Assembly: GCA_030603365.1 (NCBI GenBank)
Contig: JAUVXV010000005.1
Location: forward strand, 64,001-128,000
Source: Candidatus Heimdallarchaeota archaeon
Lineage (GTDB): Archaea; Asgardarchaeota; Heimdallarchaeia; Heimdallarchaeales; Heimdallarchaeaceae
DNA: 64,000 nucleotides
Reading direction: 5' to 3'
In this document: one piece after another, positions 33,157-42,398 of the stretch
Layout of the letters: each line of letters opens with the position of its first letter
Numbering within the stretch: the stretch's first letter is position 1
Program-made: the position numbers and the translations under genes
The notes under the pieces: generated by a model
Databases searched by the model: none
The model's input: the letters and a program-made list of their open reading frames with translations, nothing else
Told to the model about the DNA's origin: nothing

Positions 33157-34278
33157 TTATTCACTTCTAATTTCTTCTGGAGGGACGAAAGGAAACACTC
33201 TTCGAACAATATCTTTTGCTCTTTCGAAATGAGAGACCTTTCCTTCGAAATTTTCTAATTCTTCTCTGAATTCTTCGTAGAAGTTTTCAGTGAAATGTTT
33301 TGCTGCCGATTGAAGAATAAAGGCATCACTGTCACTTATAATAAGAGTAGTAACTTTATGTTCCTTGTCTTCAACAACTATGAGTTTTTTATCACCAAAA
33401 CTTACTTTCCGAAGATCCGTTTTAGCACCGGTAGTCTCAGAAATCAGCGCCTTTAGAGCTGTGACAGTTCCAGATACTAGTACGTCTTGATAAGCTAGAT
33501 CAACTGCCTTACCTCCAATTCTCACTGAAAAGAGTAATAGACCAGCATCATTGAAGATGAGTATCTTGTTAATTTTCGCAGGTAGTAGATAAACATAGAA
33601 TGGATTGAAGATGAAAGCTAAGGCTAAGATACCAAAGGTGATACTGAAAGGAATAGCTCCATAAATTTGGAAAGTGTTAAATGTCCATCTCTCGAAAACC
33701 TTGAGTGAAGCAAATACAAAACCAATTCCAGTTGCAGTAGCTATTAAGAAACTTATTCTTTTGAGTTTTTTATATTCCGCTCTCATTGTATCTTTTGTAT
33801 AAACATAAAACGCTTCTCCAAGTACAAAAGCTTGAAAGATGTTTAGCAAAACCCTTGAAACTCGATACTCTGGAGTTTCTGCATATACACCCGTAGATTC
33901 TATGCCGTAAAGAACCTCAAGTATGTATACAATTATGTATCCTCCTAGAAGTGTGGAAGCAGTTGCTAAGAGGAAAGTATTCGGTTTTTCATTACGCATG
34001 AATTCTAAATAGAGAAAGAGTACGAAAAGAGCTATACCTGAAGGAATCATGTGAAATTCTTGTAAAGAACTGTAATCAGAAACGATGCCATTTCGCCAAA
34101 GAATGAAAATAATGATCTCTAATACTCCTTGAAAGATTACCAAACCAAATAACCAAATGAACCATGTAAAACCAGTAATCCTGTCTCTGTATCTCCTATA
34201 CAAGAAATAAGCTAGGATGATACTAATAATAACCATCTGAGCAATTTTGATGTATAATTCACCATAACTAGAAGCCAT
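33157..34278 (-). CDS. Seven-TM membrane protein fused to a C-terminal longin-like domain
   Basis: Seven hydrophobic segments in aa 1-232, then ILIFNDAGLLLF...DVLVSGTVTALKALISE...LRKVSFGDKKLIV. Confidence 0.7.
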   Translation of the reverse strand: MASSYGELYIKIAQMVIISIILAYFLYRRYRDRITGFTWFIWLFGLVIFQGVLEIIIFILWRNGIVSDYSSLQEFHMIPSGIALFVLFLYLEFMRNEKPNTFLLATASTLLGGYIIVYILEVLYGIESTGVYAETPEYRVSRVLLNIFQAFVLGEAFYVYTKDTMRAEYKKLKRISFLIATATGIGFVFASLKVFERWTFNTFQIYGAIPFSITFGILALAFIFNPFYVYLLPAKINKILIFNDAGLLLFSVRIGGKAVDLAYQDVLVSGTVTALKALISETTGAKTDLRKVSFGDKKLIVVEDKEHKVTTLIISDSDAFILQSAAKHFTENFYEEFREELENFEGKVSHFERAKDIVRRVFPFVPPEEIRSE

Positions 34279-34623: not shown

Positions 34624-34989
34624 ATGGATTCCGAAGTAGAGAAACAAGATTATGAGTTGCTCTTACTCCTCAGTACTTTAGGAGCTAATAAAATTCGAGC
34701 AATACTTATCTTGGCACACCTATACCCAAAAGCGATCACTGCCACACAACTATCAACTCTGCTTGGATATTCGATGAAAGCAAGAACAATCTATCGAGGT
34801 ATATTAGATGACCTACAGGAAAGAGAATTAATCTTTCTAGACAAACTCACTCCCAAAGTAGCCAGCATTCGATTAAATCATGAGAACGAGTTACTCAAAA
34901 GACTAATCGAAATGTCTCAGAACCAGGGAGGAGAGTATCAAAAGGTAATCGATGAACTATTGGTGAAAAAAGATGAAGATGAATGGTAA
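34624..34989 (+). CDS. Small winged-helix transcriptional regulator
   Basis: ITATQLSTLLG...IYRGILDDLQERELI HTH-wing pattern. Confidence 0.6.
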   Translation: MDSEVEKQDYELLLLLSTLGANKIRAILILAHLYPKAITATQLSTLLGYSMKARTIYRGILDDLQERELIFLDKLTPKVASIRLNHENELLKRLIEMSQNQGGEYQKVIDELLVKKDEDEW

Positions 34990-35596
34990 ATACCAATCAC
35001 TGCTTCGAGCAGATAGAAAACCCACTCTAACTGTAAAAAGGGCGTTATTCTATTTAGTATTACTAGTATCTCTAGCCCTGTTTATCTCGTTTTTCACCTC
35101 TTTAAGTTATTCACAAACCTTTGATAGATCTTTTACTGATTTTAACGCTATACCTACTATTCCAACTGATTATGTAGCAGTCTTTACAACAGAACTAATT
35201 AACGAAGGATATAGAGATTTAAACGGTATCATCATCTCTTTACCAACTTGGGGTATTGTAACTCTAATCACCTCAGGTGTAGGATTTGGATCAACTATTC
35301 TGAGTTCAACTCTCTCAAAAACAATGTTATTAGAAAATAAGAAATGGTTGAAAACTTGGACAAAGAAAGGGAAAATAACTTACCACTATTTCTTTAAGAT
35401 GGTGAAAATAGATCTGGGGGAGAATAGAATAAGCATACTTAAGCTGAAGAATAAGTATAGAATTAAGATACAAATTGCAGAGGGTTTAGATCTTTCCAAA
35501 TATGGGTTCTCTTTAAAGAATAACTATTTTGTAGGATATTTTGTAAAAGAGGAACTGTCTAGTACTATTCATTTACTCAGTACTCAACTGCAATAA
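34973..35596 (+). CDS. Hypothetical membrane protein (2 TM)
   Basis: Two hydrophobic segments; overlaps the upstream regulator, so probably co-transcribed. Confidence 0.6.
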   Translation: MKMNGKYQSLLRADRKPTLTVKRALFYLVLLVSLALFISFFTSLSYSQTFDRSFTDFNAIPTIPTDYVAVFTTELINEGYRDLNGIIISLPTWGIVTLITSGVGFGSTILSSTLSKTMLLENKKWLKTWTKKGKITYHYFFKMVKIDLGENRISILKLKNKYRIKIQIAEGLDLSKYGFSLKNNYFVGYFVKEELSSTIHLLSTQLQ

Positions 35597-35737: not shown

Positions 35738-37078
35738 TTAAGCTGTAGCTTCATTACCATTAGCAATATGCTTTCGCAGATAAGAAAGATCCTTAGATGC
35801 TGGCTCTTCTTTCTTATATTGACCAAAATTACCATTTTGTAATTTATCTTCGATTTTAGCTATGGTACTATCTAACAACCAGTCCTTGTCAACTCTCCAT
35901 TTTTTCTGCTGCCAGTCGAAATTATCATACTCAAAAGTCCAATAGAGACCATGTTTTCCAAAGAAATCAAGTGAGTAGATTTTATAATCCTTTAAGGTAC
36001 TCCAAATGAGATAATTAATCTTGGATTCGTAGTATGGCGGCATTGTAAGTCTGAGGAATATTCCTTTGTTGAATAGCTCTAAATGTGATTGAAATGGAAT
36101 TCTCTCTTCATGGAAGAAGCGGAAAATTTGAGCTTTTTCTTTTTCAGGAACATTTTCTATGAAATATGCTCGTGTAGCATGTTGTTCAAATAACTTACGA
36201 CTGAAATTCCAGCGTGGGTGAGTAACAAGGTTGTTCATGACTAAATTATAGTATTTCCTACCAAAATCAACTTTAGCATTGTGCATATTCTTGTCATCAA
36301 AAAACTCACTGAGATTGAATAACAAAATTTCTTCAGCACTTGTAAGTTTCTCCTCATTAGAGTTTGAAACTTGTTCATTCTTCTTGCTAAGATGTTTGTA
36401 GTAGTCACTATAATGTTGAATCAAATCTGTTTGCTTTGACCTAATATCAATAGTTCTTCCATTAGTTATTGAAGTTGTTAAGTCTTTTAGTAGTTCAAAA
36501 TGGAGAGGTTCTATTGTCTGAAGATCAATAGCAGATGGTAGTCTAGGTAGCGAAACGCTTTTAGATAACCTTTTTTCCCAGAATGAAATTAGATCAAATG
36601 GTTCTGGATCTTGAGTATAGTGGGGTAAGGGTTGTGGCCTGGTGAACCGATAACCCATAGATTTCATTGTGAAAAAACTGTCACAATATTCTTGTTCAAC
36701 TAAATGCTCAAGATACTGGTTAAATAACTGCTCAGTATTCTCCGGGAGCTCGAAATGTGCATAGATTCCATAACTTTCACCATAAAAACGGTTGTATGCT
36801 CGAATATACTTGTGTTCAGATAAGGCATTTTGCAATAAAGTAAACTGGTGGAGAGAACTTATTGAAAATATAACTCCATATCTATAAAGTGAAATTCGTT
36901 CTGGAACAAAAGATGCGAATGGTGTTCGGAGAATTTTCCGATCTTTAAGTGATTTAACGCGTCGAATCATTGTTTGTGGAGAAATTTTTAGTTTCTCTGC
37001 TTGCTTGGAAAATGGTTCTAACGGATAATTCTGCAATACATGCAGTATCTTTTTGTCAAGTATGTTTAAATGATCCAT
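35738..37078 (-). CDS. Long Lrp/AsnC-like winged-helix transcriptional regulator
   Basis: LDKKILHVLQ..P..PFSKQAEKLKISPQTMIRRVKSL N-terminal wHTH followed by alpha/beta domains. Confidence 0.75.
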   Translation of the reverse strand: MDHLNILDKKILHVLQNYPLEPFSKQAEKLKISPQTMIRRVKSLKDRKILRTPFASFVPERISLYRYGVIFSISSLHQFTLLQNALSEHKYIRAYNRFYGESYGIYAHFELPENTEQLFNQYLEHLVEQEYCDSFFTMKSMGYRFTRPQPLPHYTQDPEPFDLISFWEKRLSKSVSLPRLPSAIDLQTIEPLHFELLKDLTTSITNGRTIDIRSKQTDLIQHYSDYYKHLSKKNEQVSNSNEEKLTSAEEILLFNLSEFFDDKNMHNAKVDFGRKYYNLVMNNLVTHPRWNFSRKLFEQHATRAYFIENVPEKEKAQIFRFFHEERIPFQSHLELFNKGIFLRLTMPPYYESKINYLIWSTLKDYKIYSLDFFGKHGLYWTFEYDNFDWQQKKWRVDKDWLLDSTIAKIEDKLQNGNFGQYKKEEPASKDLSYLRKHIANGNEATA

Positions 37079-37109
37079 TTTTTTGACCTCTTTTTTTTGT
37101 TATTGTTGT

Positions 37110-37400
37110 TTGCGAAGAAACAACCGGAGAGATCAAGAAGGTGGCTTGTACAAGAAATGTAGCCTCCGCAGTTTGCAGTCTAGCGTGCAATATCTTGTAC
37201 AAGACCCTCTCGATATCCCCTTCGAGAGAACCCATTTAGACCTCTAACTTTGTTTCTTCGTGGTTTGACCCCTTGTGTTTGAGTTCGAATTAGCTTCCTT
37301 TGACCTTTCCTAGTGGAAACCTTAATGGGGGGATTAATGACCTAGTTTCCCCCCAGGTTTTCCTTTCTCGCCAAATGAGGAAAGGGGTGGGGTTTCTGGC
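37110..37400. ncRNA. Putative ~290-nt multi-stem structured RNA
   Basis: Long-range pair CGAAGAAACAA/TTGTTTCTTCG, plus CTTGTACAAGA/TCTTGTACAAG, CTCTCGA/TCGAGAG, GGGGGGA/TCCCCCC inside AAACCT/AGGTTT, and CCTTTCTC/GAGGAAAGG. GC is elevated and there is no ORF. Confidence 0.55.
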
Positions 37401-37430
37401 GATTTTGATTTTTAATTCAGCGTGATCTTA

Positions 37431-37658
37431 TCATCCAGTTGCATACCCATGAGTTCCTATTGGCACATCCTCAACCGGACCTGCTCCTCCAGGACTATAC
37501 CCTATTGGCACATCTTCAACTGGACCTGCTCCTCCAGGACTATACCCTATTGGCACATCTTCAAGAGGTTCAGAAGTTGTAATCATTATTGTTCCTGCAA
37601 CCAAAGCAAGAATTGTTACTAAACAAAATACCCCAAGTACTTTTTGTTTCTTTTTCAT
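37431..37658 (-). CDS. Small secreted precursor peptide with tandem 15-aa repeats
   Basis: MKKKQK plus a hydrophobic h-region, then EDVPIGYSPGGAGPV x2 and EDVPIGTHGYATG. Differences between the two full repeats are synonymous in this frame. GGTGG SD-like and TTAAATA TATA-like elements lie upstream. Confidence 0.75.
   Translation of the reverse strand: MKKKQKVLGVFCLVTILALVAGTIMITTSEPLEDVPIGYSPGGAGPVEDVPIGYSPGGAGPVEDVPIGTHGYATG
37456..37564. repeat. 45-bp tandem repeat (about 2.4 copies) within the peptide gene
   Basis: CCTATTGGCACATCYTCAACYGGACCTGCTCCTCCAGGACTATAC at 37456 and 37501, partial at 37546. Confidence 0.92.
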
Positions 37659-38334
37659 TTATTTTCCACCAGCTTTATTCGAGCTCAAGTTACCATGTGT
37701 ACTAGTATTATTTAAGAGTTGTTACAATTTTCCATGTTTCTTAAAAAAGTGGAAAAAAGTAACATGACTCATGTCTAAATGCATTACATGAAAGTTTGAC
37801 GGCTCTGTTAAACTATTTTTGTCGGGATATTAAGAAGATATGACCTAATGGTCTATGTAAGGCAAATTCCGTTTTACCTTACAGACGTGAAAATATCTGG
37901 GTATATATGCGGGGAATATTGCTTAGATTATTTTTCTTTTAATAATAAAAAATTGTTGAACAAAGAGTGCATTCTTTTGAGTAATTCTACTGTTAGCTAA
38001 ACAAAATACTAGATAAAATCAACATACTTTCATTTAATGATTAATTAAGTATTGACATAAATGATTAGAGGGCTTGAATCAGTGATTTGTTTTTCTACAA
38101 AAAATCGATGTTTATCTAGAAGAAGAGTTGAGTCGATATCGCATTAAGAATAACTACAAAAAAAATCATATTACACTATTTTCTTCAAATTTGGAATTTT
38201 TTCAGAAGTATTTCTTAGCTGAGAATTTTACTTTAAAAACAACTCTTTTAGTATACAATCTGTCTTACAAAATTTCTCTATTTTAATTTACTACTATCTA
38301 TATACTTCTGTCAAATAGGATGCTAAAAAAGTAG

Positions 38335-40521: not shown

Positions 40522-41229
40522 ATGGAGTTGAGATGTTCGTTCTGTGGAGGAGAAGTAAACGAACTTAAACATGTTGATACAATGAAGAAGAAAGCATACT
40601 GTTCTTTTAGATGTACTATTGCTGATAGCATTCCAAGATTGGTTCTTTCTTTATTCTTAACTACTGGACTTGGAGTTATCTTAATTCTTGTCGGAGTTTC
40701 GAACGATTCTTCCAAAAATGTTATTATATTTAGTATTCTATTTGGAATTACAATTTTAGGAATCTTAATCTTCATTATTATAGGTTCAACGCACAATCCG
40801 AATAACCAATTACAAAGTAAAGAAAGAATATCCTTTCAAAAGATTAGATATGAGAAGATGAAGGCAGAAGAAAGTTTTACAAAAGCTCAACTTATTTATC
40901 CAGAATCACCTACAATTTCAAAAATTGCTCAACTTGTTTCTCCTGAAACATCTGCAATCTCAAAAAATACTATCCAATGTTTTTATTGCAAATCTAAGAT
41001 TGATTTCTCTAATTCAGAAGATCAAATAATCTGTATGAGTTGTGGAAATAAAATCCCTTTCTGTGATTTATGTGATGATTACATAGAATCAGAAGCTGAA
41101 ATTCTTCAACTTGAACCCTGTGGTCATATCTTTCATAAAAAAGAACTTCTAGAATGGGTAAAAAGTAATAAAATCTGTTCTAAATGTCAAGTAACTATGA
41201 CTTTTGTAGATGTTAGTCCAGATTTTTAG
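40522..41229 (+). CDS. Membrane-anchored RING-H2-like zinc-finger protein (putative E3 ligase)
   Basis: N-terminal CSFC..YCSFRC finger, 2 TM, a zinc ribbon, then CDLC-x15-CGHIFH..E..W..CSKC. Confidence 0.75.
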   Translation: MELRCSFCGGEVNELKHVDTMKKKAYCSFRCTIADSIPRLVLSLFLTTGLGVILILVGVSNDSSKNVIIFSILFGITILGILIFIIIGSTHNPNNQLQSKERISFQKIRYEKMKAEESFTKAQLIYPESPTISKIAQLVSPETSAISKNTIQCFYCKSKIDFSNSEDQIICMSCGNKIPFCDLCDDYIESEAEILQLEPCGHIFHKKELLEWVKSNKICSKCQVTMTFVDVSPDF

Positions 41230-42398
41230 AGTTTTCTTTTTCGCTTAATCCAACCTACTAGCATTACAATTGAAATAGCTATTACAAATGATTCAGTAGA
41301 TGCTTCTGTTGGTGATGAATATCCTTCTTCAACTGATTTGATAATGTAATCTATTGTAAGATAAACAAATGGCCAATCAAATTCTGCTAAACTTGACGTA
41401 AACACAACGACCATGTCATAGTCTGGCATTACTTGTATTATCTGTCCAGCCCAACCTAAAGCTAGATATGCATTCATCTGTGGGTAGACCCACCATTGGT
41501 ACCCATACCATGACCAACCACTAACCACCACTGTATTATTTGACGCTTGATCGACCCATTCCTTTGAAACTATCTGAGTTTCATTCCAAGTACCATTATT
41601 TAGAAAGAGAAATCCAAACTTTGCCATATCTCGAGGTAATAGATGAAGATCAGCTCCTCCAAAGTAAATTCCTTGTGGGTCTTGAGACCAGAACACATCG
41701 GTAAAACCTACAGGTTCGAAGATATGCTCATTTGCATACTCAAAAGTGGAATTTCCTGTCGCTTCTTCAATAATTGCAGAAAGCAGATGAGATCCTCCAG
41801 AATTATAGTTAAAAACAGTTCCTGGTTCTTCATCCTTTCCTCTGCTTAAGACAAACTCGACCCAATTATCACTTGCTTTCATCTGTACAAAACTATTTTC
41901 TGGCAAATAGTAAGAAATATCTTCTCTCCAAGAAATACCTGATGTCATGGTTAGTAGATGATAAATAGTAACATTTTCTCTTAATTCAATATTAGGTACT
42001 GAAACATTAACAAAGAAATCCAATATTTTCTGATTTACACTTTCTATAACCCCTTCCTCAATTGTAATACCAATCAAAGTTGAAATAAAACTTTTAGTAA
42101 CTGAATAGACAGGATGAAGAATTCCAGCAGTATAGTAACTGAGATACTCTTCAACCACTAGGTACCCATCCTTAACAATGAGAACACTGTCAATGTTGAA
42201 GTTATTTTCATCAATATACTCAAACATCCTATCTATTGTTTGTTCATTCATTCCTACATCTTCGAAAGAAGCTTTTTGCCACCCATTAGTGGGCCAATAG
42301 TCTCGTTCTATAACATCGCTTAAAACAGGATATGAAATAAATGAAGATAACAATAAAACCACAAACATTATGTAAACAGTAAGTGTTTTGTTTCTCAT
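41226..42398 (-). CDS. Serine hydrolase, beta-lactamase family, membrane-anchored
   Basis: SVTK, LLTMTSG, YNS, GWAGQ. Confidence 0.88.
   Translation of the reverse strand: MRNKTLTVYIMFVVLLLSSFISYPVLSDVIERDYWPTNGWQKASFEDVGMNEQTIDRMFEYIDENNFNIDSVLIVKDGYLVVEEYLSYYTAGILHPVYSVTKSFISTLIGITIEEGVIESVNQKILDFFVNVSVPNIELRENVTIYHLLTMTSGISWREDISYYLPENSFVQMKASDNWVEFVLSRGKDEEPGTVFNYNSGGSHLLSAIIEEATGNSTFEYANEHIFEPVGFTDVFWSQDPQGIYFGGADLHLLPRDMAKFGFLFLNNGTWNETQIVSKEWVDQASNNTVVVSGWSWYGYQWWVYPQMNAYLALGWAGQIIQVMPDYDMVVVFTSSLAEFDWPFVYLTIDYIIKSVEEGYSSPTEASTESFVIAISIVMLVGWIKRKRKL

What the first reader, a model, noticed from the sequence alone, without database searches (positions are those of the whole stretch)
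37431..37658. Secreted tandem-repeat propeptide: candidate archaeal peptide signal (pheromone/RiPP-like) precursor
Seen: 75 aa made of a Sec-type signal, then (EDVPIGYSPGGAGPV)x2, then a diverged third unit EDVPIGTHGYATG. It has no anchor or folded domain. It has its own promoter-like elements, a ~680-bp upstream region, and lies upstream of a structured element and a wHTH regulator on the same strand. Established: Bacillus Phr/PapR-type propeptides, yeast alpha-factor and multi-core RiPP precursors have a signal plus one or more short cores. Inference: an exported, processed signalling peptide with two variants; I know of no description of this in Asgard archaea. The neighbouring regulator has no evident TPRs, so it would not be a standard RRNPP system.
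Basis: partly seen in the sequence, partly recalled or inferred. Interest (0 to 1): 0.82.

Follow-up and report, generated by a model that had tools for sequence, protein, structure and literature searches.

The report
Asgard archaeal repeat-peptide signal candidate
A real, conserved gene in one genus of Asgard (Heimdall) archaea encodes an exported string of short repeated peptides, always paired with a double-Lrp DNA-binding regulator, and it evolved by stripping a larger secreted protein down to its tail and copying that tail, which makes it a credible but untested candidate for peptide-based cell-to-cell signalling in archaea.

Summary
The 75-aa ORF is real. Orthologues occur in 17 of 24 other genomes of the genus, exactly those holding the orthologous regulator, and in none of 58 other class genomes searched. 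Each has an export signal plus 2-7 units: a constant x-P..D-x-P-I-G frame and a strain-variable core.

The ORF is the syntenic orthologue of a secreted Ig-fold protein ending in an invariant FDPP tail. That protein preceded a tandem Lrp/AsnC regulator in 69 of 69 evaluable Asgard loci. In this genus the Ig domain was lost, through visible intermediates, and only the tail was amplified.

The regulator has no TPRs, so this is not RRNPP. A conserved 15-bp inverted-repeat box, unique in the genome, adjoins the peptide's TATA box. In one relative, peptide and regulator diverged together while the flanking DNA did not.

Best reading (about 50%): the peptide is exported, cut into units, re-imported and sensed by the regulator. 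Cleavage, import, binding and expression are all untested. No description was found in the literature searched. This scan has noted related double-Lrp/secreted-peptide cassettes in other Asgard genomes.

The parts
37431..37658 (-). Repeat-peptide precursor ORF, 75 aa
   Evidence: orthologues in 17 other genomes of the genus
37572..37658 (-). Putative Sec signal peptide, residues 1-29: basic N-region (+4), hydrophobic core, Thr at -3 and Ser at -1
   Evidence: Ser or Ala at -1 and a small or aliphatic residue at -3 in all 13 short orthologues; SignalP not available
37527..37571 (-). Unit 1, residues 30-44
37482..37526 (-). Unit 2, residues 45-59
37434..37481 (-). Unit 3, residues 60-75, with the divergent end
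   Evidence: the last unit differs or is truncated in nearly all orthologues
35738..37078 (-). Tandem Lrp/AsnC regulator, 446 aa, two HTH-RAM halves in one chain; candidate receptor
   Evidence: Pfam HTH_AsnC and NirDL-like HTH; AlphaFold pLDDT 90; Foldseek NirDL 4ch7 E 1e-8, then Lrp/AsnC proteins
37720..37764 (.). Inverted pair of asymmetric 15-bp boxes (37720-37734 and 37750-37764); candidate operator of the regulator
   Evidence: conserved across the genus and in G028/G030; the only such pair in the genome, while single boxes elsewhere occur at shuffle level
37709..37716 (-). Archaeal TATA-like box of the peptide gene
   Evidence: conserved column block in the promoter alignment, coordinates
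37665..37689 (-). Conserved 5' leader, complementary to 37279-37295
37079..37430 (-). Conserved structured intergenic element: invariant block 37368-37403, a hairpin with a GAGGTCA-type loop, about 3 such motifs per locus, and a segment complementary to the 5' leader (37279-37295)
   Evidence: 58 motifs in 18 loci against about 1 in shuffles

Best explanation
This is a two-gene peptide-signal module. Shown: an exported multi-unit precursor is encoded directly upstream of a single-chain double-Lrp regulator, with a private conserved operator-like palindrome beside its TATA box. The precursor descends from a secreted Ig-fold protein of which only the C-terminal tail was kept and multiplied. Inferred: (1) Sec export and signal cleavage after residue 29. 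(2) Cleavage at the equivalent small-residue/x-Pro junctions releases 15-19-residue acidic peptides; in the ancestral form the tail may be freed at the invariant Asp-Pro bond. (3) Re-import by an Opp/Dpp ABC transporter. (4) Binding in the cleft between the two RAM domains, whose conserved arginines would suit an acidic peptide. (5) The regulator then acts on the palindrome and changes transcription of its own cassette, a feedback loop. The constant frame would serve processing and docking, the variable core strain specificity, and the copy number signal dose.
For: Co-occurrence: peptide and orthologous regulator are present together in 18 genomes and absent together in 7 incomplete ones. Ancestral module: 69 of 69 FDPP genes are followed by the regulator, and 36 of 37 evaluable regulators are preceded by an FDPP gene. 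Synteny and a graded series run from full domain (G027, G030) through partial (G028) and remnant forms to signal plus repeats. A profile of the repeat units scores the G027/G030 tail at 18.3 bits, top of 149 FDPP tails and above all 3087 control C-termini (max 7.6). Units are homogenised within a genome (9.7% DNA difference against 38.6% between genomes), the pattern reported for Phr and fungal pheromone precursors (PMC5199041). In L223 the promoter, intergenic DNA and two flanking genes belong to this genome's clade, but peptide and regulator both deviate; the regulator tree rejects the sister relation shown by the flanking gene (p-AU 8e-45). Three Opp/Dpp systems and about 23 family-5 binding proteins exist in the genome. 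Lrp RAM domains are ligand sensors, and the NirDL cleft holds a large acidic ligand (own knowledge).
Against: No experimental or expression evidence. Known Lrp/AsnC effectors are single amino acids, not peptides (own knowledge). The co-divergence case is a single locus and could reflect recombination. Peptides of 15-19 residues are long for Opp import and would need trimming. No processing peptidase is fixed to the locus. No regulon beyond the cassette was found, so the output of the circuit is unclear. Strict gene adjacency is also expected if the regulator merely controls the gene, or if the ORF acts in cis. All genomes are kin, so the counts are not independent.
Confidence: 0.5

Rival explanations
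1. The gene is a regulated output, not a signal. The regulator senses a metabolite and controls a secreted or membrane-tethered acidic Pro/Gly-rich product (metal or surface binding, protease decoy, antimicrobial), and the repeats are a disordered linker expanded by slippage.
For: The operator-like palindrome at the peptide promoter is expected under this reading too. The ancestor is a generic Ig-like fold of the kind common in surface proteins. The mature part is acidic (net charge -4 to -21). Cleavage of the signal is only predicted.
Against: It does not explain why a 13-residue frame stays constant while the core varies by strain, why one dedicated regulator copy accompanies each FDPP gene across Asgard lineages, or the joint deviation in L223.
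Confidence: 0.2
2. The ORF is a cis-acting leader or arrest peptide, SecM/VemP-like. Ribosome stalling at proline motifs, relieved by secretion, refolds the intergenic RNA and sets expression of the regulator.
For: Signal, spacer and C-terminal proline motif upstream of a co-oriented gene is the anatomy of monitoring substrates (PMC10987492). FDPP is present in 147 of 149 representatives, mostly 12-25 residues before the stop. A conserved structured intergenic element exists, with complementarity to the 5' leader.
Against: No arginine precedes the proline motif, unlike RAPP/RAGP. The Pro-Pro pair is lost in nearly all units of this genus. The downstream gene is not part of the Sec/YidC machinery. 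Tandem amplification and strain-variable cores are not expected. Most ancestral modules have gaps under 100 nt with no such element. The leader-3' helix has 28 A-C against 7 G-U oppositions on the mRNA strand, so it is not clearly an mRNA helix.
Confidence: 0.17
3. The peptides are extracellular ligands of a membrane receptor, for example the multi-pass protein 33157-34278, and the regulator acts downstream.
For: That gene lies directly after the regulator in G027, G030 and G028 and three genes away in most of this genus. It has about six predicted helices and a soluble C-terminal domain. No import step would be needed.
Against: The malate/lactate dehydrogenase-like and small GTPase genes share the same synteny. 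The gene was not found beside other module copies examined (L054, L055, L056, L064, and the C6 and C2 copies of this genome), whereas the regulator always is.
Confidence: 0.08
4. It is a multi-core RiPP precursor (cyanobactin- or dikaritin-like), with constant recognition sequences and variable cores that are cyclised or modified.
For: A constant frame alternating with a variable 4-9-residue core resembles such precursors (resemblance from own knowledge).
Against: No modifying enzyme is conserved at the locus; the nearby radical SAM gene was seen beside it in only one other genome. The precursor has a Sec-type signal rather than a leader. The constant frame is the part inherited from the ancestral tail.
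Confidence: 0.05

Closest known systems
RRNPP peptide quorum-sensing pairs of Bacillota (Rap-Phr, PlcR-PapR, NprR-NprX, AimR-AimP)
   Same: Small Sec-exported propeptide next to a 250-500-aa intracellular regulator; C-terminal mature peptide; intragenic duplication with one diverged copy (PMC5199041, PMC10075063).
   Different: The partner is a tandem Lrp/AsnC protein with no TPR. The host is an archaeon. The peptide gene lies upstream of the regulator. Units are 15-19 residues and acidic. The ancestor carries a folded Ig domain.
Fungal alpha-factor-type multi-copy pheromone precursors
   Same: Signal followed by homogenised tandem units of variable number, with spacer-like constant parts (own knowledge; parallel noted in PMC5199041).
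   Different: No Lys-Arg Kex2 sites in this copy, and the linked gene is a cytoplasmic DNA-binding protein, not a GPCR. No homology is implied.
Lrp/AsnC (FFRP) regulators and the NirDL/AhbAB siroheme decarboxylase fold
   Same: HTH-RAM architecture, doubled in one chain as in NirDL; 15-bp box beside the TATA element as for archaeal Lrp proteins (own knowledge).
   Different: Obligately paired with a secreted gene. An H-x-Y-x-R string occurs in only 15 of 62 family members, so the decarboxylase motif is not conserved. Scores are far below the NCBIfam cut-offs for AhbA, AsnC and LysM.
SecM/VemP/ApdA arrest peptides
   Same: Signal, spacer and C-terminal proline motif upstream of a co-oriented gene with a structured gap.
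   Different: No RAPP/RAGP arginine, the downstream gene is not Sec/YidC, and the motif is repeated.
Haloferax volcanii disk-forming-signal quorum sensing (QarABC; PMC13464002)
   Same: Archaeal density-dependent signalling by a secreted factor.
   Different: That system uses a two-component pathway and a signal described as a small molecule; no gene-encoded peptide or Lrp receptor.

Membership tests
RRNPP | Propeptide of 10-100 aa | tested here: met
   75 aa; complete orthologues 62-142 aa
RRNPP | Sec signal peptide | tested here: inconclusive
   n/h/c anatomy and the -3/-1 rule fit in 13 of 13 short forms; SignalP not available
RRNPP | Receptor of 250-500 aa, directly adjacent | tested here: met
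   446 aa, 352 nt downstream; adjacent in all loci with enough DNA
RRNPP | Receptor carries TPRs | tested here: not met
   confident alpha/beta model (pLDDT 90) matching NirDL and Lrp/AsnC; no TPR family in Pfam
RRNPP | Mature peptide is re-imported and binds the receptor | not testable with these tools
   importers exist in the genome; import and binding need experiments
RiPP precursor | Co-clustered modifying enzyme and dedicated peptidase or transporter | tested here: not met
   none conserved across 20 loci of 6-16 kb
Sec-monitoring arrest peptide | RAPP/RAGP-like motif near the C-terminus | tested here: not met
   no Arg before the A-G-P of this peptide; the ancestral motif is FDPP; other arrest motifs are not excluded
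Sec-monitoring arrest peptide | Downstream gene is secA, secDF or yidC | tested here: not met
   the downstream gene is the Lrp-type regulator
Sec-monitoring arrest peptide | Ribosome stalling controls the downstream gene | not testable with these tools
   needs toeprinting or a reporter
Lrp/AsnC fold (regulator) | N-terminal HTH plus RAM domain | tested here: met
   present twice in one chain
Siroheme decarboxylase AhbAB/NirDL (regulator) | Conserved H-x-Y-x-R catalytic motif and family score | tested here: not met
   string in 15 of 62 members; 18 bits against a cut-off of 140
Asp-Pro self-cleaving secreted modules (FrpC SPM, GDPH proteins) | Autocatalytic, often Ca-dependent Asp-Pro cleavage in a homologous domain | tested here: inconclusive
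   the ancestor has an invariant Asp-Pro and an acidic D-x-D-x-D-G loop, but fold searches gave only generic Ig matches (best Z 10.0, rmsd 2.7, 101 aligned)

The most novel reading that the evidence does not exclude
Asgard archaea (Heimdall-, Hod- and Thorarchaeia) carry a widespread, multi-copy peptide-signalling family in which a double-Lrp protein is the peptide receptor. The ancestral signal is a tail released from a secreted Ig-fold carrier, perhaps by Asp-Pro cleavage. In this genus it has been streamlined into a pheromone-like multi-copy precursor with strain-specific cores. This would be the first gene-encoded peptide signal with a cognate receptor in archaea that I could find described, and a receptor fold independent of RRNPP.
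Probability: 0.4. Interest if true: 0.9.

Novelty: new variant of a known kind. Interest (0 to 1): 0.72.

Why it matters
Archaeal cell-cell signalling is poorly understood, and I found no gene-encoded peptide signal with a known receptor described for archaea in the library searched. This locus names a candidate ligand, receptor and operator, all short enough to synthesise or express, so the question can be tested without culturing the organism. It concerns the archaea closest to eukaryotes. It would extend Lrp/AsnC proteins from amino-acid sensors to peptide receptors. It also shows, with intermediates, how a multi-copy propeptide can arise from the tail of a folded secreted protein. Even if the signalling reading fails, the obligate two-gene module is an undescribed Asgard family: 339 clusters at 50% identity, and every member with a source name is labelled hypothetical.

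Tried and rejected
Complex prediction of regulator with the repeat region: verdict 'no answer', so it is used neither for nor against binding.

Protein-database search with the peptide found only itself.

Pfam, NCBIfam and ESM Atlas gave no name for the peptide or the FDPP protein. Rfam gave nothing above chance. Viral contigs held no relative of the regulator.

A regulon scan found no second box pair, and single boxes at shuffle level. The box is not enriched upstream of distant FDPP genes compared with random upstream regions (p 0.44; many start calls there were uncertain). No general palindrome was found upstream of them either.

RNAalifold on the intergenic alignment gave 7 pairs and no covariation. 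The variable-length hairpins align poorly, so compensatory changes were seen only locus by locus.

RNA evidence: two runs held under 10% of the words. Four short contigs of related strains lay on the repeat in one metatranscriptome, but contigs cannot show strand or level and collapsed repeats inflate depth, so expression is not shown.

Sigma-70 promoter scanning does not apply to archaea. Literature searches found no description of the module.

Full report
Observation. The ORF at 37431-37658 (-) encodes 75 aa exactly as described. Two 45-nt copies are 96% identical, with a partial third, and the gene is single-copy in the 3.65-Mb genome. Source names on homologues of the neighbouring regulator place the organism in Heimdallarchaeaceae.

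Conservation. A profile of the repeats finds orthologues in 17 of 24 other genomes of the genus and in none of the 58 other genomes of the class searched. These 17 are exactly the genomes that hold the orthologous regulator. The seven without the peptide, 72-86% complete, also lack it. Every orthologue with an intact start has a basic N-region and a hydrophobic core, followed by 2-7 units. In all 13 short forms the residue before the first x-Pro is Ser or Ala, with a small or aliphatic residue at -3, as expected of a cleaved signal (judged by hand). Units share an x-P..D-x-P-I-G frame and differ between strains in a core of about 4-9 residues; the last unit is different or truncated. Synonymous codons vary freely in the frame. 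Units within a genome differ by 9.7% at DNA level against 38.6% between genomes. This is a protein-coding gene under selection, with concerted evolution of its repeats.

Origin. Upstream of more distant regulator homologues lies a secreted protein of about 150-170 aa ending in F-D-P-P, a Gly-rich spacer and a second proline motif. It folds as a generic Ig-like sandwich (pLDDT 88; no specific match). It occurs in 95 of 301 Asgard genomes, often in several copies, and forms 339 clusters at 50% identity. FDPP is present in 147 of 149 representatives. All 69 evaluable copies are followed by the regulator on the same strand within about 8-216 nt. Conversely 36 of 37 evaluable regulators chosen without regard to their neighbour have such a gene upstream; two further paralogues examined do not. 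This genome has two intact modules elsewhere, on C6 and C2. In G027 and G030 the full-length protein occupies the same position as our peptide, with regulator, multi-pass membrane protein, dehydrogenase and GTPase genes shared. Its tail scores highest of all FDPP tails against a profile built only from the repeat units: 18.3 bits, against a maximum of 7.6 for 3087 control C-termini. G028 has a shortened domain with one tail. Several lineages of this genus keep a remnant of 25-40 residues with 2-3 tails, and the rest have signal plus repeats only. So the domain was dispensable here, and the tail was kept and multiplied. From memory, the sizes of the closed genomes G027 and G030 (3.08 and 3.33 Mb) match Ca. 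Heimdallarchaeum from laboratory enrichments; I did not verify this.

The partner. The 446-aa protein is a single-chain double Lrp/AsnC protein (pLDDT 90). It is closest in architecture to NirDL and then to Lrp/AsnC regulators, with no TPR. The decarboxylase motif is not conserved. His89, Tyr91, Arg97, Arg144, Arg289 and Arg294 are largely conserved. That they line a cleft for an acidic peptide is my inference.

Non-coding elements. Beside the peptide's TATA box (37709-37716) lies an inverted pair of asymmetric 15-bp boxes (37720-37764). It is conserved across the genus and in G028 and G030, and is the only such pair in the genome. An asymmetric box suits a pseudo-dimeric Lrp, so autoregulation is likely but untested. 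The 352-nt gap to the regulator is conserved and structured (z -4.07). It has an invariant block, a hairpin whose stem changes in compensating fashion around a GAGGTCA-type loop, and about three such motifs per locus (58 in 18 loci against about 1 in shuffles). A segment at 37279-37295 is complementary to the 5' leader in most loci. Its mismatches (28 A-C, 7 G-U) do not favour the mRNA strand, so its nature is open.

Co-divergence. Contig L223 belongs to this genome's clade by promoter (75% identity), intergenic DNA (79%), the small HTH gene (88-95%) and the membrane-protein tree (sister to L213, 99/99). Yet its regulator is only 63-68% identical to clade members: 69% in the first RAM domain against 87-96% for the others. 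The regulator tree rejects the L213-L223 pairing (p-AU 8e-45) and membership of the clade (p 0.001). Its peptide is also the most deviant of the clade. Two coding regions changed while the DNA between them did not. This fits ligand-receptor co-evolution, but it is one case, and recombination cannot be excluded.

Mechanism. The most likely reading (0.5) is export, cleavage at x-Pro junctions, re-import through one of three Opp/Dpp systems, binding to the regulator, and feedback at the palindrome. Only the anatomy, linkage, descent and conserved sites are shown; every biochemical step is inferred. Rivals are a regulated secreted product without a signalling role (0.2), a cis-acting arrest or leader peptide (0.17), a ligand for a membrane receptor such as 33157-34278 (0.08), and a RiPP (0.05).

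Comparison. It works like RRNPP systems, where duplicated and diverged peptide copies are documented (PMC5199041). It fails the TPR criterion of that family (PMC10075063), so it is not a member. It fails the RiPP and RAPP/RAGP tests. The archaeal quorum sensing I found described uses other parts (PMC13464002). No paper describing this module was found. Earlier notes of this scan report the same cassette in another genome, the FDPP module, and other double-Lrp proteins paired with tiny exported peptides. They are unchecked leads and not counted as support.

Verdict. The feature is real, conserved and undescribed, and its evolutionary derivation argues that the tail peptide is the working part. 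Signalling is plausible but unproven. Interest 0.72; new variant of a known kind.

Noticed in passing
window 37079-37430 and 37665-37689: Conserved structured intergenic element with repeated GAGGTCA-type motifs and a long-range complement to the peptide's 5' leader. The strand is unresolved (A-C versus G-U counts lean antisense for the long helix, sense for the hairpin). It has no Rfam match and may be a new cis-regulatory or antisense RNA.
   Followed up: partly
window 37770-37900: Further conserved blocks upstream of the operator (TTGCCTTACA, CCGACA, TGTAATGCA) in most orthologous loci; possibly sites for other regulators or a divergent promoter.
   Followed up: no
G000 C6:50310-52040 (L071) and C2:108172-109852 (L072): Two intact FDPP-protein plus double-Lrp modules in the same genome; the C6 copy is followed by a small response-regulator-like gene. 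A fourth paralogue (C14:169666, L073) follows a different, C-terminally anchored secreted protein.
   Followed up: partly
window 33157-34278: Multi-pass membrane protein (about six helices by hydropathy) with a soluble C-terminal domain and no Pfam or NCBIfam hit; a second paralogue follows it in G027, G030 and G028.
   Followed up: partly
window 34624-35596: Overlapping pair: a highly conserved 121-aa HTH-like gene (74-95% identity across the genus) and a fast-evolving two-helix membrane gene (26-66%), convergent on the regulator.
   Followed up: partly
window 41226-42398; L002, L004, L058, L062, L063: A secreted, C-terminally anchored serine hydrolase of the beta-lactamase/peptidase S12 type lies directly or closely upstream of the peptide in several relatives; a possible processing enzyme, but absent from the locus in others.
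   Followed up: partly
L218:7712-9640, L219:2924-4780; G000 contigs C4, C7, C11, C12, C15: Family-5 peptide-binding proteins flank the cassette in several relatives, and this genome has about 23 of them, many in tandem arrays away from permease genes.
   Followed up: partly
L054:5727-9166 (G025): Two regulators in tandem with one FDPP gene between them; the first has no FDPP gene upstream.
   Followed up: no
L013:1-1749 (G036): Secreted subtilase-like protein with an N-terminal run of pentapeptide repeats of the S-V-P-Y-W type; a chance hit of the peptide search.
   Followed up: no
window 35738-35800: The regulator's C-terminus carries variable Asn-Gly repeats in relatives, low-confidence in the model.
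   Followed up: no
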